Sequence record: OL362272.1
DNA: 44,545 bases
DNA from: Escherichia phage 6948
Strand: one strand, 5' to 3'
Below the pieces are notes generated by a model that saw nothing but the letters and a program-made list of their open reading frames with translations, was not told the DNA's origin and did not search any database. Shown here one piece after another: positions 1-44,545 of this stretch. The translations under genes were made by a program, and so were the position numbers. Every line of letters begins with the position of its first letter. The stretch's first letter is position 1.

Positions 1-300
1 TTGAGCGTACACAATAAACATGCAGCTACAGAGGATGAGGTTGGCATTCTGCATGGTGCTATTACCAAAATCTTCAATAAGAAAGCACAGGCAATACTGG
101 ACACTATAGAAGAAGACCCTGATGCAGCATTACATTTAGTGTCTGGTAAGGATATTGGTGCGATGTGTAAGTGGGTTCTTGATAACGGCATTACCGCCAC
201 ACCTGCTGCACAGCAGGAAGAGTCCAAGTTATCTAAGCGCCTCAAGGCTATCCGAGAGGCATCCAGTGGTAAGATAATTCAATTCACTAAGGAGGATTGA
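1..300 (+). CDS. terminase small subunit, 3' portion (5' end lies outside the window)
   Basis: Open frame runs from window start to TGA at 298-300, overlapping the large-terminase ATG (ATGA). Assignment is by position immediately upstream of the large subunit as in T7 gene 18/19; no diagnostic motif recognised. Confidence 0.45.
   Translation: MSVHNKHAATEDEVGILHGAITKIFNKKAQAILDTIEEDPDAALHLVSGKDIGAMCKWVLDNGITATPAAQQEESKLSKRLKAIREASSGKIIQFTKED
92..114 (+). promoter_or_regulatory. phage-RNAP promoter (inside the small-terminase gene)
   Basis: CAATACTGGACACTATAGAAGAA; matches the window consensus ATTTACYGGACACTATAGAAG except at -17 to -14. Confidence 0.5.
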
Positions 301-2198
301 TGGCTAAGGCAAGAGAATCACAAGCGGAGGCTCTTGCCAGATGGGAGATGCTACAGGAGTTACAGCAGACCTTTCCTTACACAGCGGAAGGTTTGCTTCT
401 CTTTGCAGATACAGTTATTCATAACTTAATTGCAGGCAACCCTCATCTGATTCGTATGCAGGCTGATATCTTGAAGTTCCTATTTTACGGACACAAGTAC
501 CGCCTCATCGAAGCGCCTCGTGGTATCGCTAAGACAACACTATCAGCAATCTATACGGTATTCCGTATTATTCATGAACCGCATAAGCGTATCATGGTTG
601 TGTCCCAAAACGCCAAGCGAGCAGAGGAAATCGCAGGTTGGGTAGTTAAAATCTTCCGTGGCTTAGACTTTCTTGAGTTTATGCTGCCGGATATCTACGC
701 TGGGGATCGTGCATCCGTTAAGGCGTTTGAGATTCATTACACCCTACGTGGTAGTGATAAGTCTCCTTCTGTATCTTGTTACTCAATCGAAGCAGGTATG
801 CAGGGTGCTCGTGCTGATATTATTCTAGCGGATGACGTAGAGTCGATGCAGAACGCTCGTACGGCAGCGGGCCGTGCCTTGCTTGAGGAACTGACTAAGG
901 AGTTTGAATCTATCAACCAGTTTGGGGATATCATTTACCTTGGTACACCTCAGAACGTAAACTCTATCTACAACAACCTACCTGCTCGTGGTTACTCTGT
1001 TCGTATCTGGACTGCGCGTTACCCTTCAGTAGAGCAAGAGCAATGTTATGGCGACTTCCTTGCACCTATGATTGTTCAAGATATGAAGGACAACCCAGCA
1101 CTTCGCTCAGGGTACGGGTTGGATGGTAATAGTGGTGCACCTTGTGCCCCTGAAATGTATGATGATGAAGTTCTGATTGAGAAGGAAATCTCTCAGGGTG
1201 CTGCTAAGTTCCAGCTTCAGTTCATGCTTAACACTCGCATGATGGATGCTGACAGATACCCATTACGCCTGAACAATCTAATCTTCACCTCGTTTGGTAC
1301 AGAGGAAGTCCCTGTGATGCCTACGTGGAGTAATGATTCCATAAACATCATTGGTGATGCACCTAAGTATGGTAACAAGCCTACGGATTTCATGTACAGA
1401 CCTGTAGCTCGCCCATATGAATGGGGTGCTGTCTCCCGCAAGATTATGTATATTGACCCTGCGGGTGGCGGTAAGAATGGGGATGAGACGGGTGTGGCCA
1501 TCGTATTCCTGCACGGCACATTCATTTATGTGTATCAGTGCTTTGGTGTACCTGGCGGATACCGAGAATCGTCCCTGAATCGCATTGTGCAGGCCGCAAA
1601 GCAGGCGGGTGTTAAAGAGGTATTCATTGAGAAGAACTTTGGTCATGGCGCGTTTGAGGCGGTAATTAAGCCGTACTTTGAACGAGAGTGGCCTGTAACT
1701 CTGGAAGAAGATTACGCCACCGGACAGAAAGAATTGCGTATCATTGAGACGCTGGAGCCGCTCATGGCAGCCCATAGGCTTATCTTCAATGCAGAGATGG
1801 TGAAGTCAGACTTTGAGTCGGTACAGCACTATCCGCTTGAACTACGCATGTCCTACAGTCTTTTCAATCAAATGTCGAACATAACGATTGAGAAGAACAG
1901 CCTCCGGCACGATGACCGCCTAGACGCCCTGTATGGCGCTATCCGGCAATTAACTTCTCAGATAGACTATGACGAGGTTACACGGATTAATCGCCTCAGA
2001 GCGCAGGAGATGCGAGATTACATCCATGCTATGAACACACCTCATCTACGCAGGGCAATGCTATATGGGGATTACGGTACTGAGCGAAGAGTGACCAACA
2101 CTTCCGTAGCGATGCAGCAGCGAGTTTACGGGCAGAACTACCGAAATAAATCGGCAAGCAGAAATACACTTTCTGCAAGGATTTCAAGGACTTATTAA
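300..2198 (+). CDS. terminase large subunit (DNA maturase B)
   Basis: 632 aa; Walker A-like segment EAPRGIAKTT near the N-terminus, acidic nuclease-type segments (ILADDVES, MYIDPAGGG), size and position typical of T7 gp19-like terminases; RBS GGAGG before ATG 300. Confidence 0.9.
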   Translation: MAKARESQAEALARWEMLQELQQTFPYTAEGLLLFADTVIHNLIAGNPHLIRMQADILKFLFYGHKYRLIEAPRGIAKTTLSAIYTVFRIIHEPHKRIMVVSQNAKRAEEIAGWVVKIFRGLDFLEFMLPDIYAGDRASVKAFEIHYTLRGSDKSPSVSCYSIEAGMQGARADIILADDVESMQNARTAAGRALLEELTKEFESINQFGDIIYLGTPQNVNSIYNNLPARGYSVRIWTARYPSVEQEQCYGDFLAPMIVQDMKDNPALRSGYGLDGNSGAPCAPEMYDDEVLIEKEISQGAAKFQLQFMLNTRMMDADRYPLRLNNLIFTSFGTEEVPVMPTWSNDSINIIGDAPKYGNKPTDFMYRPVARPYEWGAVSRKIMYIDPAGGGKNGDETGVAIVFLHGTFIYVYQCFGVPGGYRESSLNRIVQAAKQAGVKEVFIEKNFGHGAFEAVIKPYFEREWPVTLEEDYATGQKELRIIETLEPLMAAHRLIFNAEMVKSDFESVQHYPLELRMSYSLFNQMSNITIEKNSLRHDDRLDALYGAIRQLTSQIDYDEVTRINRLRAQEMRDYIHAMNTPHLRRAMLYGDYGTERRVTNTSVAMQQRVYGQNYRNKSASRNTLSARISRTY

Positions 2199-7682: not shown

Positions 7683-7832
7683 ATGCCATTAATCAAATCA
7701 GTTAAGCAAAGTGCTGTACGCCAGAACACAGAAGAACTTATTCAATCAGGACGTGACCCTAAGCAAGCCTATGCGATTGCCAAGGATGTACAACGTCGTG
7801 CTATGAAGAAACCTTCTGCATCTTCTGCGTAA
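7683..7832 (+). CDS. small hypothetical protein
   Basis: 49 aa basic peptide, RBS AGGAAG upstream; not in ORF track (<60 aa). Confidence 0.3.
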   Translation: MPLIKSVKQSAVRQNTEELIQSGRDPKQAYAIAKDVQRRAMKKPSASSA

Positions 7833-7902
7833 GCAGGTTAATATCTTAGTGTACACAAGGGCAGACCTAGGTTTGCTCTTAGTGTAATCCAAAGGAGGTA
7901 AC

Positions 7903-8031
7903 ATGCTGAAAGATGGTTGGGTTTCATATGACCCTACAGACCCTACGAATTGGCTACAGGTTATCGCTATAGCTTGTGCAGGTAGCCTATTGGCTGCCAT
8001 GATGTATTCATTATGGATGTACACAAAGTAA
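7903..8031 (+). CDS. small hydrophobic protein
   Basis: 42 aa, strong RBS AAAGGAGG 7 nt upstream; one predicted TM helix (LQVIAIACAGSLLAAMMYSLW). Confidence 0.35.
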   Translation: MLKDGWVSYDPTDPTNWLQVIAIACAGSLLAAMMYSLWMYTK

Positions 8032-8680
8032 CCAAAGTCAAAATTTTGATGTAGGCGTGTGTCAGCTCTCTCGCCCTCGCCCTCGCCGGGTTGCCCCCAT
8101 AGGGTGGCCTGAGGGAATCCGTCTTCGACGGGCAGGGCTGATGTACTCCTTGGATAGTACAAGGGGGGGCGGAGGGAACGCCTAGGGAGGCCCAGGAATG
8201 GCTTAGTGGTGGACAAGGTGATTACCTTAGTGAAGCCTCTTAGTGCAGTCCTGAGGCCATTCAGGGCCATTCCTGAGCGTTTGACAGGGTGGGAGGGTGT
8301 GGGCTATCTGTTCGTTTCGTTCACTCCGCTTGCGCTACGTTCACTCGCTCACGTGTACCTTAGGTTATTCCTTGATGGATAGCTTAGGTTAGCCTTAGTG
8401 GACTACCTTAGTTAAAGCCTTAGTGCTTCACTTAGTATCAGCTTAGTAGTGTGCCTTAGTAAGTCTTAGTGTCTTCTCTTAGTGATTGCACATGCAAGCA
8501 TGTAAGATGCCATTAGGTCGCGGTCGGTAGACCGCTAAAGAAGAAGTATAGTAATAAGATGCAGTAGGAGGAACACCAGAAACCTAGCCAACCTAGCCTA
8601 TCCTAGCTCTGTATCTATTGCTTTTCCTTAGTCTAACATGTGAGACAACCTAGATTTATCTTAGTGATGATATCTTAGTG

Positions 8681-31550: not shown

Positions 31551-31573
31551 ATTTACTGGACACTATAGAAGGG
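31551..31573 (+). promoter_or_regulatory. phage-RNAP promoter upstream of the major capsid gene
   Basis: ATTTACTGGACACTATAGAAGGG, followed by strong RBS. Confidence 0.8.
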
Positions 31574-36748: not shown

Positions 36749-39696
36749 TGGCAATTGAGCGACAAGCAGTACAAGGTCTGCCACAAGTGCAGGCCACTTC
36801 TCCTAATGTCATGACCTTTGCACCTCAACAAGTGGGAGGTGTGGAGGCTGGCGTGGCTTCTACCTCCGGTAGTAGGTTTATCGAAGACCTTATTCGTGCA
36901 GCAAGCAGCGTGGCTGATGTTACCACTGGTATCCTTAATCAGAAGATTGAGGAAGATAAGGTTGTTCAAATGGAACGGGCATATAACGGATTAATGCCTT
37001 CTGAGGATGCAACTCGTGGTGGCGCTCGTGCTAACATGCTTGTCAAAGCTCAACTGCTAGCTAATGATGAAGCAGCACGAATGAAAGACATGGCTACTCG
37101 TTTCCAAGGGACGGATGACGAGTGGACACAACTTATGGTTGACTCTCGTAATGAGATGCAGAATAAGCTGTTCCAGCAATACCCTGAGTTGCAAGGTGAC
37201 AAAGATACTATGCGTATGGTCACTAATGTCTTCCAAGAACAGCAGCCTCAGATTTGGGCTACACGAACCCAGCATAAACTTGACCGTGAACAAGCAGACC
37301 GTGAGGATACCTTTGACGGGCGAGTGGCTTCTACTTGGGATTCTAATATTGACCCTGAAGCCTCTGGCTATGCTTTACAGGAACGAATCCGCGAAGGTCT
37401 TACTCAAGGATTACTACCTGAACAGATGCACAAGAAGTTAGTCCAGCGAGCAATTTCACTTGCACAAGGCGGTGATGTTAGCATGGCTGAAGCCCTGAAG
37501 TATGTGAAGGACGATAAGGGTGTTTCTGTTTATGCTAAGAATCCACAGCTTATCACAGCCATCACTAGTGGTAATGCAGTTTGGGCTAGGAATAATGTAG
37601 CTGATGTAACTCGTATGTCTTTCGAAGTTAAAGAATCCTACCTTGCAGGTGATTTAACTGATGAAGAATTGTTGGAACGAGCACAGCACATTAATAATCT
37701 GACAGGTAACTCTGTCTTCTCTAATCCAGAGCTAGAGGCACTGATGCGCCAACGGGCTAAGCAGAATGCAGAGCTAGGTGCAATGCAGGATATGCGACGT
37801 GAGCTTTACTCCGACCGCCTGACTGGCTTCCAAGGTAAGACTGATAAAGAGAAGAAGGCTTACATTGATGTTATCAAACAGGATAGCCAACTTTATGCAG
37901 ACCAGCAAATCAAACAACGTGGCTTGGACCCTTACAGTCAAGAGGCTGAAGCTATTCGTGGTGCAGTGGAAGTGCAGCGCCTGCAATTCATGAACTCCAA
38001 AGGCTTAGTGGATGATACCTTTGAGTCTCGTATCAAAGCCATGGAATCTATGCTATCGCCTGAGCACTTTGCCAAGGGCGAACCACAGGAGTTGATGACT
38101 ATTCGCCAGTTGTGGGAACAGTTGCCAGAAGAGAGCCGAGGTGTCTTTGGTGACACGGTGAATGGCTACATGGATAACTACAACACTGCACTACAAATGG
38201 GAGAGACACCTTTGCAGGCTGCAAGGTTTGCGCGTGAAGCACAGCAGAAATTCTCTCGTACTGAGAAGGAAACCAAGAAGTTCAACTCAGCTATTGGAGA
38301 TGCACTGGATGAGGTATCTGGTGCTGGCTGGTTTGATGGTAAAACCGAAGTGTCAGACTTAGGTAAAGCTATTGCGGAAGAAGAGTTACGAGCTAAGGCC
38401 AATATGTTGTGGTCTAGTGGTATGCGTAACATGGATTCTATCAAGAAGGCTTTAATTACTTGGGGCAATAAACGCTACACTCAAACAGAGGATGCAAAGA
38501 CTTCCGGTGGCTATTTCATTAAAGGTGATTACACTTCTGCATCTGATATGCTTATGTCAGTTGGGAAAGGCGTAAACCCTACTGATGTACCTCTGGCGCT
38601 TGGTAGGTATGTAGAAACACAGATGCCAGAATTGAAGAAGGAGCTTCAAGAGTGGGAAACTAAAGATGATATATACATTGATTACAATGAACAGAAAGGT
38701 ACTTTCGTGATTCGTGCTGGTGCAGCAGGTCGCCCTCTTTCTGGAGTAATCCCTGTAACCTCTTTAGATACCACTTCACTACTAGATTCTGCCTATCAGA
38801 AGAAAGTAGAGGAACGAGATAAAGGCGAGTATGTTCACCCTTATCGTACAGATATTGGTGCACAAGAGCCTATGCCAGCTAAACCAACTGCCAAAGATAT
38901 TGGTAAATTTGGACTAGCTAACTTCCTCATGTCTTCTGCTTTTGCTTCTGGTGAGAATCTGCCTTCTAACTTCGAGATTAACTATCGAGGTAATATGCAA
39001 CAATTCTATGACAAGCTAGCTATGGATGAGAATAAAGATAAAGTTGGCTTTAATAAGGCAACTGGAACCTTTACTCCATATAAAGATGCCCACGGTGAGT
39101 CTATCGGTTACGGTCATTTCTTAACGGAAGAAGAGAAGCGAAACGGGTATATTAAGATTGGTGATGAACTAGTTCCCTATCGAGGGTCTATGTCTCAGCT
39201 TACAGAGAGCAAGGCTCGCGCTCTTATGGAGCAAGATGCCAAGAAGCATGTGCCTCCTACTCGTGACTGGAAGATTCCGTTTGACCAGATGCATCCTGCA
39301 CAGCAACGTGGCTTGATGGATTTAACCTACAATTTAGGTAAAGGTGGAATCCAGAACTCACCGCGTGCTCTTGCTGCATTCAAAGCTGGTAAGCTTACGG
39401 AAGGCTTTATCGAAATGCTGGGCACTGCATCAAGTGAAGGTAAGCGTATTCCTGGCCTACTGAAGCGACGCGCTGAGGCATACAATATGGCATCTGCTGG
39501 TGGTGTGCCTAAGATTACCGAAGTGGAGACTCGTGAAGATGGCTCCATGTGGGTTAGGTTTGGTGGACCTATGCCAGCAGGTTCTGTCTCGGCATGGACT
39601 CATAAACGTATTGGCGCGGATGGTTGGTATCAGGTTTATGAGGCTGCACCTACCAAGTTAGCTAAAGGTTCTAAGGTAGGTAAATTTAAGTTGTAG
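36748..39696 (+). CDS. internal virion protein B with lysozyme-like (T4-lysozyme-type) domain
   Basis: 982 aa; C-terminal region contains GYGHFLTEEEK...LMDLTYNLG resembling T4 lysozyme GIGHLLT...AINMVFQMG. Confidence 0.75.
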   Translation: MAIERQAVQGLPQVQATSPNVMTFAPQQVGGVEAGVASTSGSRFIEDLIRAASSVADVTTGILNQKIEEDKVVQMERAYNGLMPSEDATRGGARANMLVKAQLLANDEAARMKDMATRFQGTDDEWTQLMVDSRNEMQNKLFQQYPELQGDKDTMRMVTNVFQEQQPQIWATRTQHKLDREQADREDTFDGRVASTWDSNIDPEASGYALQERIREGLTQGLLPEQMHKKLVQRAISLAQGGDVSMAEALKYVKDDKGVSVYAKNPQLITAITSGNAVWARNNVADVTRMSFEVKESYLAGDLTDEELLERAQHINNLTGNSVFSNPELEALMRQRAKQNAELGAMQDMRRELYSDRLTGFQGKTDKEKKAYIDVIKQDSQLYADQQIKQRGLDPYSQEAEAIRGAVEVQRLQFMNSKGLVDDTFESRIKAMESMLSPEHFAKGEPQELMTIRQLWEQLPEESRGVFGDTVNGYMDNYNTALQMGETPLQAARFAREAQQKFSRTEKETKKFNSAIGDALDEVSGAGWFDGKTEVSDLGKAIAEEELRAKANMLWSSGMRNMDSIKKALITWGNKRYTQTEDAKTSGGYFIKGDYTSASDMLMSVGKGVNPTDVPLALGRYVETQMPELKKELQEWETKDDIYIDYNEQKGTFVIRAGAAGRPLSGVIPVTSLDTTSLLDSAYQKKVEERDKGEYVHPYRTDIGAQEPMPAKPTAKDIGKFGLANFLMSSAFASGENLPSNFEINYRGNMQQFYDKLAMDENKDKVGFNKATGTFTPYKDAHGESIGYGHFLTEEEKRNGYIKIGDELVPYRGSMSQLTESKARALMEQDAKKHVPPTRDWKIPFDQMHPAQQRGLMDLTYNLGKGGIQNSPRALAAFKAGKLTEGFIEMLGTASSEGKRIPGLLKRRAEAYNMASAGGVPKITEVETREDGSMWVRFGGPMPAGSVSAWTHKRIGADGWYQVYEAAPTKLAKGSKVGKFKL

Positions 39697-42700: not shown

Positions 42701-42958
42701 GGCCTAGGTGTTCTACCTTCTGAGTTAGTACAATCCCGTTATGAGGCTGGCTTTCAGACTAAGGGTTTGATAGACCAAATACCACTAGTAGGTGTTGGTC
42801 AAGATGCATATCGTTTAGCAGATTCTATAACTAAATATGCAGAGGGTGATACAGAAGGTGTAGATGTGGCACGTAGGGCTTTACGCTTAGTGCCTCTAAC
42901 TAATGTAATAGGAATCCAGAACGCATTGCGTTATGGCTTAGATGAACTGGAGGATTGA
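39761..42958 (+). CDS. internal virion protein D (large ejection/core protein)
   Basis: 1065 aa; largest structural gene, positioned as T7 gp16. Confidence 0.7.
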   Translation: MEQDIKTNWAGYVQSTPEPFSIEAAPVSAPTIRQRNELQEQVLEAKADADILGAVGAAFQNEWLAFGGKRWYDRATADFTPQPDFEIQPEQREALRFKYGTDMMQTITEGVRSEDELNFRIQNADEDLERNKRIAQAGWVGSVATIGAAVLDPVGWVASIPTGGAAKVGLVGRAVRGAIAAGVSNAAIESVLVQGDMTRDLDDIMVALGSGMAMGGVIGAVARGRATKLSEQGDDRAASIVRSADAGDRYVRAVADDSIGAMRVKGEEVLTEGAFDISSKGEDLLKTLQREGNSIDMTPRRWAGTMSALGTVVHSSHDASVRGLGARLFESPQGLGMQKASASLMQNTNLNRLKSADMNRFNDGFDLWLKENNINPVAGHTNSHYVQQYNEKVWEAVRIGMDESTPKSIRMAAEGQQAMYREALALRKRSGEAGFENIKADSKYMPDIFDTMKARRQFDRIGKDIDKEDIIELFSRAYQNGARKIPKEVADEIARAQVNRVVDATLTGRMSFEKAMSGQTKAEYEAIMRKAGFSDEEIEKMVEALDNKETRDNISNRAKMSLGLDVTQEYNGIRMRDFMNTNVEELTDNYMKEAAGGAALARQGFSTYQAALNAIDLVERNARNAAKDSKASLALDEEIRQMREGLRLIMGKSIDVDPQALSTKMLRRGRDITGVLRLGQMGFAQLGELANFMGEFGIAATTIALGKQFRFTSKALRSGDGFFRDKNLAEVERMVGYIGEDNWLTTKGARPDEFGDVTTVKGMMAHFDQSMNSIRRAQTNLSLFRMAQGSLERMTNRQIALSFIDHLEGKKIIPQKKLEELGLTQEFMTNLQKHYDANSKGSGLLGFDTMPYAMGETLANAIRRKSGLIIQRNFIGDEGIWMNKALGKTFAQLKSFSLVSGEKQFGRGIRHDKIGLAKKTAYGFALGSIVYAAKAYVNSIGREDQDEYLEEKLSPKGLAFGAMGMMSTTAVFSLGGDFLGGLGVLPSELVQSRYEAGFQTKGLIDQIPLVGVGQDAYRLADSITKYAEGDTEGVDVARRALRLVPLTNVIGIQNALRYGLDELED

Positions 42959-43920
42959 TGAGTTATACTTTCACAGAACATATAGCCAACGGTACGCAAG
43001 TAACCTATCCCTTTAGATTTGCTGGCAGGGATAAAGGCTATCTTCGTGCCTCAGATGTGATAGTGGAATCTCTTCAAGGTAACACTTGGATTGAGGTTAC
43101 ATCTGGCTGGCAACTAACTGGCACGCACCAGATTACTTTTGATGTAGCACCAGTTGCAGGTTTGAAGTTCCGTATTCGAAGGGAAGTACAAAAGGAGTAT
43201 CCATACGCTGAGTTTGACCGTGGTGTTACCTTGGATATGAAGTCTTTAAATGGTTCTTTCATTCATATACTGGAGATTACACAGGAGTTACTTGACGGGT
43301 TTTATCCAGAAGGATACTTCATTAAACAGAATGTAAGCTGGGGCGGCAATAAGATTACTGATTTGGCTGATGGCACAAATCCGGGAGATGCAGTAAATAA
43401 AGGGCAGCTTGATGCCATCGACAAGAAGCATACAGATTGGAACGCCAAACAGGACATTGAGATTGCTGGCCTTAAGGCTGGTATGACTTCTGGTATTGCG
43501 CACAGAACTGTTCCTTGGTACACGATAGCCAAAGGTGGTGAGATTTCCGTAAAACCACCTTATGAATTTCAAGATGCACTAGTTTTCCTTAATGGGGTGT
43601 TGCAGCACCAAATTGTAGGCGCATACTCTATAAGCAACAACACTATCACTTTCGCAGAGCCGCTTGTGGCTGGTACAGAGGTGTATGTGCTGATTGGTAG
43701 TCGTGTGGCTACATCTGAACCTAATATTCAGTTAGAGTTGAACTTTGACTTAGTAGAAGGCCAACAAGTAGTACAGATTGGCTCTGCATTTAAGTACATT
43801 GAGGTCTACCTTGATGGATTATTACAACCTAAACTTGCTTATCAGGTAGACGGTGACATTGTTACTTTCTCAGAGGGAGTGCCAGAATGCCGGATGACTG
43901 CTAAGATTATCACAGCATAA
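42958..43920 (+). CDS. tail-fibre adaptor protein (T7 gp17 N-terminal-domain-like)
   Basis: 320 aa; short tail-fibre-like protein lacking a receptor-binding distal domain, consistent with an adaptor that docks separate tailspikes. Confidence 0.65.
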   Translation: MSYTFTEHIANGTQVTYPFRFAGRDKGYLRASDVIVESLQGNTWIEVTSGWQLTGTHQITFDVAPVAGLKFRIRREVQKEYPYAEFDRGVTLDMKSLNGSFIHILEITQELLDGFYPEGYFIKQNVSWGGNKITDLADGTNPGDAVNKGQLDAIDKKHTDWNAKQDIEIAGLKAGMTSGIAHRTVPWYTIAKGGEISVKPPYEFQDALVFLNGVLQHQIVGAYSISNNTITFAEPLVAGTEVYVLIGSRVATSEPNIQLELNFDLVEGQQVVQIGSAFKYIEVYLDGLLQPKLAYQVDGDIVTFSEGVPECRMTAKIITA

Positions 43921-43929
43921 GGAGGTAGG

Positions 43930-44154
43930 ATGATTAACTCCGAACTGGTAGATAGTGGTGTGAAGCTTGCGCCACCTGCACTCGTATCAGGTGGGTACTT
44001 CCTCGGTATCAGTTGGGATAACTGGCTCGTAATTATGACCCTTATTTACACAGTAATGCAAATGGGTTGGTTTATTTATGAGAAAGTCCAGACTATAAAG
44101 AAGAGGAGAAAAGCTAAATGTACTCAGAAGTTGAAAGAGCAGGGTACATCATAA
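43930..44154 (+). CDS. holin (gp17.5-like)
   Basis: 74 aa, RBS AAGGAGG; one TM helix (WLVIMTLIYTVMQMGWFIY) and basic C-terminus KKRRKAK; position after the fibre adaptor. Confidence 0.6.
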   Translation: MINSELVDSGVKLAPPALVSGGYFLGISWDNWLVIMTLIYTVMQMGWFIYEKVQTIKKRRKAKCTQKLKEQGTS

Positions 44155-44545
44155 GAGAAGATGGTGTTATCTTGAGCAAGAAGGGACAACCGATGGTTGG
44201 TGCTATTCGTGAAAGAGGATACCGCACAGTAACATTAAGGATAGATAATAAATCCAAGACTTATAAAGTACACAGGTTGATTGCATGGAAGCATGTGCCG
44301 AACCCTCATAACTATAAGGTTGTTAACCATAAAGACCGCAACCCATCTAATTGCCATAAAGATAACCTAGAGTGGTGCACTCAACAGGAAAACACTATAC
44401 ATGCACACTATGGTTGTCTTGACATACAAGATAAAATAGATGAAGCCAAAGCATTAAGAAGCCAAGGCTGGTCTTATCCTAAAATCGGTAAATACTTTGG
44501 GTTAGACCATAAGACTGTTTGGTATTGGATTAATGGGAGAAGAAC
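44118..44545 (+). CDS. HNH homing endonuclease (3' end outside the window)
   Basis: ATG 44118, open to window end; HRLIAW...VNHKDRNPSNCHKDNLEWCTQQENTIH is an HNH-type motif; start overlaps the holin 3' end in another frame. Confidence 0.7.
   Translation, partial: MYSEVERAGYIIREDGVILSKKGQPMVGAIRERGYRTVTLRIDNKSKTYKVHRLIAWKHVPNPHNYKVVNHKDRNPSNCHKDNLEWCTQQENTIHAHYGCLDIQDKIDEAKALRSQGWSYPKIGKYFGLDHKTVWYWINGRR

What the first reader, a model, noticed from the sequence alone, without database searches (positions are those of the whole stretch)
43930..44545. HNH homing endonuclease between holin and small-terminase genes, overlapping the holin 3' end
An HNH-motif ORF starts at 44118 in a different frame, inside the last 37 nt of the holin gene, and runs off the window; by the permuted layout it would end just before the small-terminase gene at the window start. 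Such free-standing endonucleases are mobile insertions in T7-like genomes and mark a variable locus.
Basis: partly seen in the sequence, partly recalled or inferred. Interest (0 to 1): 0.45.

Follow-up and report, generated by a model that had tools for sequence, protein, structure and literature searches.

The report
Mobile HNH endonuclease cassette beside terminase
A small selfish endonuclease gene sits between the lysis (holin) and DNA-packaging (small terminase) genes of this K1-5-like coliphage; most relatives lack it, and it brings its own replacement for the end of the holin gene, which is an ordinary homing-endonuclease insertion.

Summary
An ATG at 44118 opens an ORF inside the last 37 nt of the 74-aa holin gene (43930..44154), in another frame. 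It runs off the window. The window is a circularly permuted complete Vectrevirus (K1-5-like) genome, so the ORF closes at window 2..4 (143 aa). Its TGA overlaps the terS TTG start (TTGA).

The protein is an I-HmuI-like HNH_3 endonuclease with a C-terminal helix-turn-helix.

The homing interpretation is supported:
- The closest relative, phage 6949 (about 98% identity), has an empty site, as do K1-5, K1E and about 70 other records. Only four phages among 50,697 records carry an orthologue, always at this junction.
- The mobile unit is larger than the ORF. About 521 nt (44022/44026..44545 plus window 1) replace 83 nt. This includes a diverged 3' part of the holin gene that is found only in HNH-carrying genomes.
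- Flanking markers show conversion tracts of different lengths.
- Two copies elsewhere are frameshifted. Intact copies show strong purifying selection.

Nuclease activity and the target site are inferred, not shown. I predict the target lies in the replaced 83 nt of empty alleles. An orthologue at this junction is already annotated as a putative HNH endonuclease in phage ACG-C91, so interest is low.

The parts
43930..44154 (+). Class II (T7-type) holin gene, 74 aa. It is chimeric: codons 1-32 match the backbone and codons 33-74 come from the cassette.
   Evidence: Pfam PF10746 E=5.6e-19 and PHROG 920. Codons 1-32 are 99% identical in nucleotides to empty-site phage 6949. From codon 33 identity drops to 57%, and the gene is 10 codons longer than the 64-aa holin of empty alleles.
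44022..44545 (+). Mobile cassette, continuing to window position 1. About 521 nt replace 83 nt of the empty allele. It holds the alternative holin 3' part, the HNH gene and the terS start codon.
   Evidence: Compared with phage 6949, the first cassette-linked SNP is at 44022 and block divergence starts at 44026. On the right only window 1 differs (T versus G), and window 2..628 is identical. All HNH-less matches stop at window 44025. GC is 38.3% against 45.1% for the genome, in the lowest 0.5% of 520-nt windows.
44026..44117 (+). Cassette-borne replacement of the holin second hydrophobic segment and basic tail, upstream of the HNH start.
   Evidence: This version is seen only in HNH-carrying genomes (EC120, ULINTec4, K1E KY435490, ACG-C91, L014, L015). 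The next best tblastn hit among 50,697 phage records is 51% identical. In IMG/VR the pattern is found only in ACG-C91, and not at all in JGI metagenome contigs. dN/dS between the two cassette lineages is 0.065.
44104..44108 (+). Shine-Dalgarno-like AGGAG, 9 nt upstream of the HNH ATG, inside the holin coding sequence.
   Evidence: Read from the sequence. The start position is conserved as ATG or GTG in all orthologues.
44118..44545 (+). HNH endonuclease ORF: codons 1-142 plus 2 nt. The ORF finishes at window 1..4 (last base of codon 143, then TGA).
   Evidence: Translation. HNH_3 E=5e-9 and PHROG 59 E=4e-36. PDB I-HmuI 1U3E by sequence E=1.4e-8, and by Foldseek E=9.1e-5 as the sole significant hit.
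44262..44393 (+). HNH catalytic core (residues 49-92). H71, N83 and N92 align with I-HmuI H75, N87 and N96. N70 takes the place of I-HmuI D74.
   Evidence: Pfam stretch 49-92. Alignment to 1U3E. H52, H71, N83 and N92 are invariant in the 6-sequence alignment. The catalytic roles of the I-HmuI residues are from my own knowledge of the I-HmuI structure paper.
44424..44534 (+). C-terminal three-helix helix-turn-helix domain (residues 103-139), the presumed DNA-binding module.
   Evidence: HTH_23 E=1.8e-4, below the Pfam cut-off. The orthologue on L013 passes the cut-off at 24.9 against 24.6 bits. AlphaFold helices 103-115, 120-127 and 131-139 have block pLDDT of 75-95.
44535..44539 (+). GGGAG Shine-Dalgarno-like sequence for terS, inside the HNH 3' end, 6 nt before the TTG at window 1.
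   Evidence: Read from the sequence. Empty alleles have GGAGGGAG before a GTG start at the equivalent place, inside the holin 3' end.
1..300 (+). Small terminase gene. Its TTG start (1..3) overlaps the HNH stop TGA (2..4). A phage-promoter-like site lies at 95..112.
   Evidence: Pfam DNA_Packaging_2 E=3e-16 and PHROG 891. The start codon varies with the cassette lineage: TTG, ATG or GTG. Promoter match.

Best explanation
This is a free-standing, I-HmuI-like HNH homing endonuclease gene carried in a roughly 521-nt cassette at the holin/terS junction of a K1-5-like (Vectrevirus) phage.

Shown here:
- The ORF is intact and has the HNH_3 core and a C-terminal helix-turn-helix.
- Near-isogenic genomes lack it.
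- The cassette replaces 83 nt of the empty allele with a diverged but still holin-like 3' part, the endonuclease gene and a new terS start codon.
- Flanking markers show conversion tracts of different lengths.
- Some copies elsewhere are decaying, while intact ones are under purifying selection.

Inferred mechanism:
1. The gene is translated late, from the same transcript as the holin and terminase genes. Its start lies in the holin 3' end and its stop overlaps the terS start, so terS stays translationally coupled.
2. In a mixed infection the enzyme nicks or cuts the HNH-less allele. The most likely target is the 83-nt holin-3'/terS-start segment that the cassette replaces.
3. The T7-type recombination system repairs the break from the HNH-carrying genome. 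This copies the cassette plus variable lengths of flank.
4. The cassette's diverged holin 3' part (57% nucleotide identity) makes the carrier genome immune to its own enzyme.
For: Family and architecture:
- HNH_3 at 36.1 bits (cut-off 24.8) and PHROG 59 at 4e-36.
- I-HmuI (1U3E) is the only significant PDB match by sequence (E=1.4e-8, residues 11-104) and by fold (Foldseek E=9.1e-5, probability 1.0, 150 columns).
- H71, N83 and N92 are invariant.

Presence and absence:
- The closest genome, phage 6949 (about 98% identity), is empty. Its flanks are essentially identical to the window: 5 SNPs in 43532..44021 and none in window 2..628.
- K1-5, K1E AM084415, VEc3 and mutPK1A2 are also empty.
- Orthologues occur in only 4 phages among 50,697 records, all at this junction and in at least three different backbones.
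- K1E AM084415 (empty) and K1E KY435490 (filled) form a second near-isogenic pair on the left flank.

Linkage:
- The alternative holin 3' part occurs in every HNH-carrying genome and in no HNH-less one.

Conversion tracts in terS:
- In the window, the donor allele is present only at position 1.
- In L014 it is present at positions 1, 12, 15 and 33.
- In EC120 the pattern is mosaic and extends further.

Foreign composition:
- GC is 38.3% against 45.1% for the genome.

Life-cycle signs:
- ACG-C91 has a 1-nt deletion plus N70S. L014 has a 1-nt insertion. Both lose the helix-turn-helix.
- Between intact lineages there are 64.7 synonymous and 30.3 nonsynonymous differences. dS is saturated and dN is 0.105.

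Context:
- Homing endonuclease genes commonly sit next to terminase and other essential genes (PMC10448857).
- Relatives carry paralogous HNH_3 genes between terS and terL, and a putative homing endonuclease splitting terL.
Against: - No enzymatic activity, cleavage site or biased inheritance has been shown for this protein or any orthologue. I found no paper on it.
- The structure model is only moderate (mean pLDDT 66, TM 0.30 to 1U3E).
- The residue equivalent to the I-HmuI metal ligand D74 is Asn here. This is family-wide in the orthologues and in the terS/terL paralogues.
- The three K1-5-type carriers (window, EC120, L014) share four upstream SNPs. They may therefore descend from one invasion followed by ordinary recombination, not from independent homing events.
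- The diverged holin part could be donor DNA that hitch-hiked, and not an immunity determinant. L013's holin tail is intermediate between the two types.
- The element is rare, about 5 of 77 matching records. That fits weak or past drive as well as active drive.
Confidence: 0.7

Rival explanations
1. Packaging accessory. Like HK97 gp74, the HNH protein next to the terminase genes works with terminase in processing DNA for packaging, and it is kept for that reason.
For: It lies immediately upstream of terS and appears translationally coupled to it. There is a weak helix-turn-helix similarity to Terminase_5, E=0.0017, below the cut-off. HK97-type phages keep an HNH protein next to terminase, and the authors of PMC10448857 note that the homing and packaging readings are not mutually exclusive.
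Against: It is absent from the closest relative and from most Vectrevirus genomes that have near-identical terminase genes, so it is dispensable. There is no similarity to HK97 gp74 (BLASTP E=22), and the Pfam family differs (PF01844 versus PF13392). Frameshifted copies persist in ACG-C91, an isolated phage. T7/SP6-type phages package from concatemers with direct terminal repeats, not cos sites (established knowledge; UAB_Phi78 has direct terminal repeats in PMC4837284).
Confidence: 0.04
2. Passenger of ordinary mosaic recombination. The cassette spreads by general homologous recombination, or by selection on the alternative holin tail (lysis timing). The endonuclease is inactive or irrelevant to the spread.
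For: The holin 3' part is always co-inherited and is itself under purifying selection (dN/dS 0.065). The carriers share upstream SNPs, which suggests common descent. The element is rare. Two of the eight known copies are frameshifted.
Against: The HNH ORF shows saturated synonymous change but only dN 0.105 between lineages, and all catalytic residues are invariant. This indicates selection on the nuclease itself. The same compact element occupies backbones that differ strongly in neighbouring genes: ULINTec4 gp37 falls to about 50-60% identity just upstream of the holin gene. The neighbouring terS/terL junction holds paralogous endonucleases with the same local recoding of flanks.
Confidence: 0.12
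3. Inter-phage competition nuclease. The enzyme mainly cuts the genomes of co-infecting HNH-less relatives to exclude their markers (marker exclusion or partial exclusion), benefiting the carrier phage. Copying of the gene is a side effect.
For: This uses the same data as the homing reading: a site-specific nuclease family, an immune-looking diverged target region, and a position next to essential genes. Free-standing phage endonucleases are known to cause localised marker exclusion (general knowledge of the T4 seg and mob genes; mobE paper PMC2790892 listed).
Against: Sequence data cannot separate this from homing. The short conversion tracts (the window has donor sequence only up to terS position 1) show little exclusion of neighbouring markers.
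Confidence: 0.1

Closest known systems
I-HmuI (Bacillus phage SPO1 intron-encoded HNH homing endonuclease, PDB 1U3E)
   Same: It is the only significant solved-structure relative by sequence (E=1.4e-8) and by fold (E=9.1e-5). Both have an N-terminal beta region, an HNH_3 core with the His/Asn/Asn positions aligned, and a C-terminal helix-turn-helix.
   Different: The window's gene is free-standing and not inside a group I intron. It is shorter (143 versus 174 aa). Foldseek identity is about 27%. Asn replaces the Asp74 metal ligand. Whether it nicks or makes double-strand cuts is unknown.
Orthologous ORFs at the same junction in Vectrevirus records: ACG-C91_0043 'putative HNH endonuclease', K1E KY435490 AQY55044.1 'hypothetical protein', and unannotated ORFs in EC120 and ULINTec4
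   Same: They have the same position, the same start-codon site inside the holin 3' end and the same linked holin 3' part. Protein identity is 100% (EC120), 98.6% (ULINTec4), 83% (K1E KY435490) and 76% (ACG-C91).
   Different: This window combines the cassette with a 6949-like backbone and lacks EC120's second endonuclease between terS and terL. The ACG-C91 copy is frameshifted.
Free-standing phage homing endonucleases that home without an intron (T4 seg and mob genes such as MobE; T5 F-Tfl HNH nickases)
   Same: They are inserted between or next to essential genes. They vary in presence among close relatives. Flanking markers are co-converted. The carrier allele differs in sequence near the site. 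T5-like phages hold homologues at 34% identity.
   Different: Those enzymes have mapped cleavage sites and measured inheritance bias. Here both are predictions.
HK97 gp74-type HNH proteins of packaging modules
   Same: It is a small HNH protein encoded directly upstream of the small terminase gene.
   Different: There is no sequence similarity (E=22) and the Pfam family differs (PF01844). HK97-type proteins are conserved in their lineage, whereas this one is absent from most relatives.

Membership tests
HNH_3 / I-HmuI-like HNH endonucleases | Match to the family profile above the curated threshold | tested here: met
   PF13392 at 36.1 bits against a cut-off of 24.8, E=5e-9, residues 49-92. PHROG 59 at E=4e-36.
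HNH_3 / I-HmuI-like HNH endonucleases | Catalytic His and the two Asn of the beta-beta-alpha-metal motif are present | tested here: met
   H71, N83 and N92 align with I-HmuI H75, N87 and N96 and are invariant in alignment A1. The D74 equivalent is Asn. The roles of the I-HmuI residues are from memory of the structure paper.
HNH_3 / I-HmuI-like HNH endonucleases | Extended architecture: N-terminal beta DNA-binding region, HNH core and C-terminal helix-turn-helix | tested here: inconclusive
   Foldseek aligns the whole length to 1U3E (150 columns, E=9.1e-5), but TM is only 0.30 and mean pLDDT is 66. The helix-turn-helix is confident (block pLDDT 75-95). HTH_23 falls just below the cut-off here and just above it in the L013 orthologue.
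HNH_3 / I-HmuI-like HNH endonucleases | Site-specific nicking or cleavage of DNA | not testable with these tools
   Needs purified protein and substrate DNA.
Free-standing homing endonuclease gene (functional class) | Presence/absence polymorphism at one site among close relatives | tested here: met
   Phage 6949, K1-5, K1E AM084415 and others are empty. The window, EC120, ULINTec4, K1E KY435490, ACG-C91, L014 and L015 are filled at the identical position.
Free-standing homing endonuclease gene (functional class) | Co-conversion of flanking markers with variable tract length | tested here: met
   Informative sites in terS: donor alleles reach position 1 in the window, position 33 in L014, and further as a mosaic in EC120.
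Free-standing homing endonuclease gene (functional class) | The carrier allele differs from the empty allele at or near the insertion site (self-immunity) | tested here: inconclusive
   The 83-nt replaced segment is only 57% identical and is strictly linked to the gene. Whether the target lies there is not known.
Free-standing homing endonuclease gene (functional class) | Cleavage of the empty allele and biased inheritance in mixed infection | not testable with these tools
   Requires phage crosses and nuclease assays.
HK97 gp74-like packaging HNH proteins | Sequence or family similarity to gp74 (PF01844) | tested here: not met
   BLASTP E=22. gp74 hits PF01844 and the window protein hits PF13392.
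HK97 gp74-like packaging HNH proteins | Conserved next to terminase throughout the phage lineage | tested here: not met
   Present in only about 5 of 77 matching Vectrevirus records and absent from the closest relative.
T7-type class II holin (PF10746), for the overlapped gene | Profile match and position between the tail-fibre/adaptor gene and terS | tested here: met
   PF10746 E=5.6e-19 and PHROG 920. The synteny is the same as K1-5 gene 38.

The most novel reading that the evidence does not exclude
The homing unit is a two-part cassette. The endonuclease travels with its own cleavage-immune replacement for the holin second hydrophobic segment and charged tail, and with a new terS start codon. 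On this reading, each homing event rewrites a determinant of lysis timing and re-couples small-terminase translation to the endonuclease. Spread of a selfish gene would then change the phage's lysis and packaging expression phenotype.
Probability: 0.2. Interest if true: 0.45.

Novelty: already known. Interest (0 to 1): 0.22.

Why it matters
As a class this is ordinary. Free-standing HNH endonuclease genes next to terminase genes are common in phages, and an orthologue at this junction is already annotated as a putative HNH endonuclease in a public record (ACG-C91).

It has some practical value:
- The ORF is unannotated in EC120 and ULINTec4, where a 390-nt gap is left, and should be called.
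- The holin gene in carriers is a chimera with a 10-codon longer, different C-terminus, and terS starts at a TTG that overlaps the endonuclease stop. This matters for anyone engineering or comparing K1-5-like therapeutic phages.
- The near-isogenic pair of this phage and phage 6949 gives a ready-made test system for homing in SP6/K1-5-like phages. The predicted target is narrowed to 83 nt.

Tried and rejected
- Single-sequence AlphaFold model: pLDDT 48, usable only for the helix-turn-helix.
- NCBIfam: no meaningful hit.
- I looked for an empty-site relative of the third cassette lineage (L013) to test whether its holin tail is native. No close backbone exists in the phage collection; the best matches are about 67% identical.
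- I looked for HNH-less carriers of the cassette-type holin part. There are none among 50,697 phage records. In IMG/VR the pattern matches only ACG-C91, itself an HNH carrier, and there is no match in JGI metagenome contigs. These pattern scans need an exact match, so diverged copies would be missed.
- The word-indexed protein search returned only 6 hits, so the census outside isolated phages is thin.
- Literature searches found no paper on this specific gene.
- The HK97-type packaging role is rejected on family, similarity and dispensability.
- I checked for a promoter or terminator inside the cassette and found none.
- I checked for further HNH_3 genes in the window and found none.
- The minus-strand ORF 7746..8270 has no Pfam hit and is not annotated in phage 6949. 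It is probably spurious.

Full report
**What the window is.**
The window starts with a small-terminase gene (1..300, Pfam DNA_Packaging_2) and a large-terminase gene (297..2198). It ends with internal-virion genes, a tail-fibre/adaptor gene (42955..43920), a holin gene and the ORF in question. Megablast places it in the genus Vectrevirus (K1-5-like phages, Autographiviridae, Molineuxvirinae). The closest record is Escherichia phage 6949 (OL362273), at about 98% identity over 97-98% of both halves. The window is therefore a complete genome written as a circular permutation that begins at terS.

**Check of the observation.**
- The holin ORF is 43930..44154 (74 aa; PF10746 E=5.6e-19; PHROG 920).
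- An ATG at 44118 is preceded by AGGAG at 44104..44108. It opens an ORF in a different frame that overlaps the last 37 nt of the holin gene and stays open to the window end (142 codons).
- Closing the circle adds one codon and a TGA at window 2..4. The product is 143 aa, and its stop overlaps the terS TTG start as TTGA.
- The same uninterrupted sequence occurs in the linear records EC120 and ULINTec4 and in two metagenome contigs. The join is therefore real.
- The protein passes the Pfam HNH_3 threshold (36.1 against 24.8 bits) and matches PHROG 59 'HNH endonuclease' at 4e-36.
- It is the only HNH_3-like ORF in the window.

**What the protein is.**
- Its only significant relative among solved structures is the homing endonuclease I-HmuI (1U3E). 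The sequence match is E=1.4e-8 over residues 11-104.
- A moderate AlphaFold model (6-sequence alignment, mean pLDDT 66) gives a Foldseek match of E=9.1e-5, probability 1.0, over 150 columns. The TM-score is low (0.30), as expected for an elongated multi-domain protein and a mediocre model.
- H71, N83 and N92 align with I-HmuI H75, N87 and N96 and are invariant among homologues. The catalytic roles of these I-HmuI residues are from my own knowledge.
- The position of I-HmuI D74 is Asn in this whole group, including the paralogues at the neighbouring site.
- Residues 103-139 form a confidently predicted three-helix helix-turn-helix.
- There is no similarity to the HK97 gp74 packaging HNH protein (BLASTP E=22), which belongs to PF01844.

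**Empty and filled sites.**
- Of 77 phage records matching the junction, most lack the ORF.
- In K1-5, K1E (AM084415), VEc3, mutPK1A2 and 6949, the holin is 64 aa and its last 17 nt overlap a GTG start of terS.
- tblastn of the protein against 50,697 phage records finds orthologues in only four phages: EC120 (100%), ULINTec4 (98.6%), K1E KY435490 (83%) and ACG-C91 (76%). All are at this junction. The next hit is 40% identical.
- In EC120 and ULINTec4 the ORF is not annotated. In ACG-C91 it is annotated as 'putative HNH endonuclease'.
- Three more copies were found in metagenome assemblies: L014, L015 and the more distant L013.

**Exact anatomy of the insertion.**
- Against phage 6949 the left flank is nearly identical up to window 44021, with 5 SNPs in the last 490 nt. 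A linked SNP lies at 44022, and block divergence begins at 44026, which is holin codon 33.
- On the right only window position 1 differs (TTG against GTG). Window 2..628 is identical.
- About 521 nt therefore replace 83 nt.
- Every HNH-less match stops at window 44025.
- The replaced part still encodes a holin-like hydrophobic segment and a basic tail, but it is only 57% identical in nucleotides to the empty allele and 10 codons longer.
- This version of the holin end occurs in every HNH-carrying genome and in no HNH-less one. The next best match in the phage collection is 51% identical in protein. In IMG/VR the pattern finds only ACG-C91, and it finds nothing in JGI metagenome contigs.
- The holin 5' part follows the backbone, not the cassette.
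- The cassette has 38.3% GC against 45.1% for the genome, in the lowest 0.5% of windows of that size.

**Signs of movement and of the usual life cycle.**
- Informative sites in terS show donor-type alleles reaching position 1 in the window and position 33 in contig L014. In EC120 they extend further as a mosaic, all on K1-5-like backbones.
- ULINTec4 carries a 98-99% identical cassette next to a tail-fibre gene end that is only about 50-60% identical.
- K1E AM084415 (empty) and K1E KY435490 (filled) are a second pair that is near-identical on the left flank.
- ACG-C91 has a 1-nt deletion and an N70S change. L014 has a 1-nt insertion. Both lose the helix-turn-helix.
- Between the two intact cassette lineages, synonymous sites are saturated (64.7 synonymous against 30.3 nonsynonymous differences; dN 0.105). 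The cassette-borne holin part has dN/dS of 0.065. Both coding parts have therefore been kept functional over a long time.
- A caveat: the window, EC120 and L014 share four SNPs just upstream of the holin gene. They may stem from one invasion of the K1-5-type backbone.

**Expression.**
- No sigma-70-like promoter on the + strand and no terminator-like site lies in 42900..44545.
- The nearest upstream phage-promoter-like site is at 31554. Another lies inside terS at 95..112.
- The gene is therefore part of the late transcript.
- Its start is embedded in the holin 3' end, and its stop overlaps the terS start. A GGGAG sits 6 nt upstream of that start. This mimics the holin/terS overlap of empty alleles.
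- I infer that this arrangement keeps terS translation coupled. That is not shown.

**Most likely mechanism (inference).**
1. The enzyme nicks or cuts HNH-less genomes in mixed infections, probably within the 83 nt that the cassette replaces.
2. Recombinational repair from the carrier genome copies the cassette and variable lengths of flank.
3. The diverged holin end protects the carrier from its own enzyme.

This is the standard intron-less homing scheme known from the T4 seg and mob genes. Homing endonuclease genes are known to cluster next to terminase and other essential genes (PMC10448857).

**Rival readings.**
- Packaging helper.
- Passenger of ordinary recombination.
- Competition nuclease.

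These are weighed in the Rival explanations section. The packaging role is the least likely, because the gene is dispensable in near-identical phages and unrelated to gp74.

**Novelty.**
The kind is well known, and an orthologue at this junction is already annotated as a putative HNH endonuclease in a public record (ACG-C91). I found no publication on it in the searched library. The strict linkage to a replaced holin end, the terS re-coupling and the near-isogenic empty partner are useful details, but they would not surprise a specialist.

Noticed in passing
window 297..300 (terS stop / terL start overlap); L001:1548-1991, L004:1110-1553, L008:1094-1426: Relatives have a second endonuclease site at the terS/terL junction. 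EC120 and VEc3 carry a 147-aa HNH_3 paralogue there, and mutPK1A2 a 110-aa one (phmmer E=5e-16 and 4e-21 to the window protein). AAPEc6 and KMB47 also list an HNH endonuclease at this junction, with the same match pattern. The last ~25 nt of terS are recoded in the aligned carriers EC120 and VEc3. The window is empty at this site, while EC120 has both insertions.
   Followed up: partly
L045:1478-2011 (phage K1E AM084415, record 38777..39310): In K1E the large-terminase gene is split into 40A and 40B by gene 40.5, annotated 'putative homing endonuclease'. This is a third endonuclease site in the packaging module. The window's terL (297..2198) is intact.
   Followed up: no
window 95..112 (and 13 other sites, e.g. 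2200, 3875, 16712, 21653, 23262, 31554): The SP6/K1-5-type phage-promoter-like motif TACTGGACACTATAGAAG occurs 14 times (0.19 expected by chance). One copy lies inside the terS coding sequence, about 95 nt downstream of the cassette.
   Followed up: partly
L001:856-1246 (EC120) and L003:838-1228 (ULINTec4): The public records of EC120 and ULINTec4 leave a gap of about 390 nt unannotated between the holin gene and terS. That gap holds an intact orthologue of this HNH gene (100% and 98.6% protein identity).
   Followed up: yes
L013:1295-1947 (ENA contig ERZ27260015 k141_223113): A third, more distant cassette lineage: HNH 147 aa, 71% identical. Its holin is 67 aa and overlaps the HNH start by 17 nt. 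The HNH 3' end reads 14 nt past the terS GTG, copying the holin/terS overlap of empty alleles. No close backbone relative was found, so its empty site is unknown.
   Followed up: partly
window 7746..8270 (- strand): A 174-aa ORF lies on the minus strand of a genome that is otherwise transcribed in one direction. It sits in the region between the tailspike genes and the early genes. It has no Pfam hit and is not annotated in phage 6949, so it is probably not a gene.
   Followed up: partly
window 43300..43920 versus L012 (ULINTec4): The 3' third of the tail-fibre/adaptor gene (gp37) drops to about 50-60% identity between the window and ULINTec4, although the adjacent cassette is 98-99% identical. 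This marks a recombination boundary just upstream of the holin gene.
   Followed up: no
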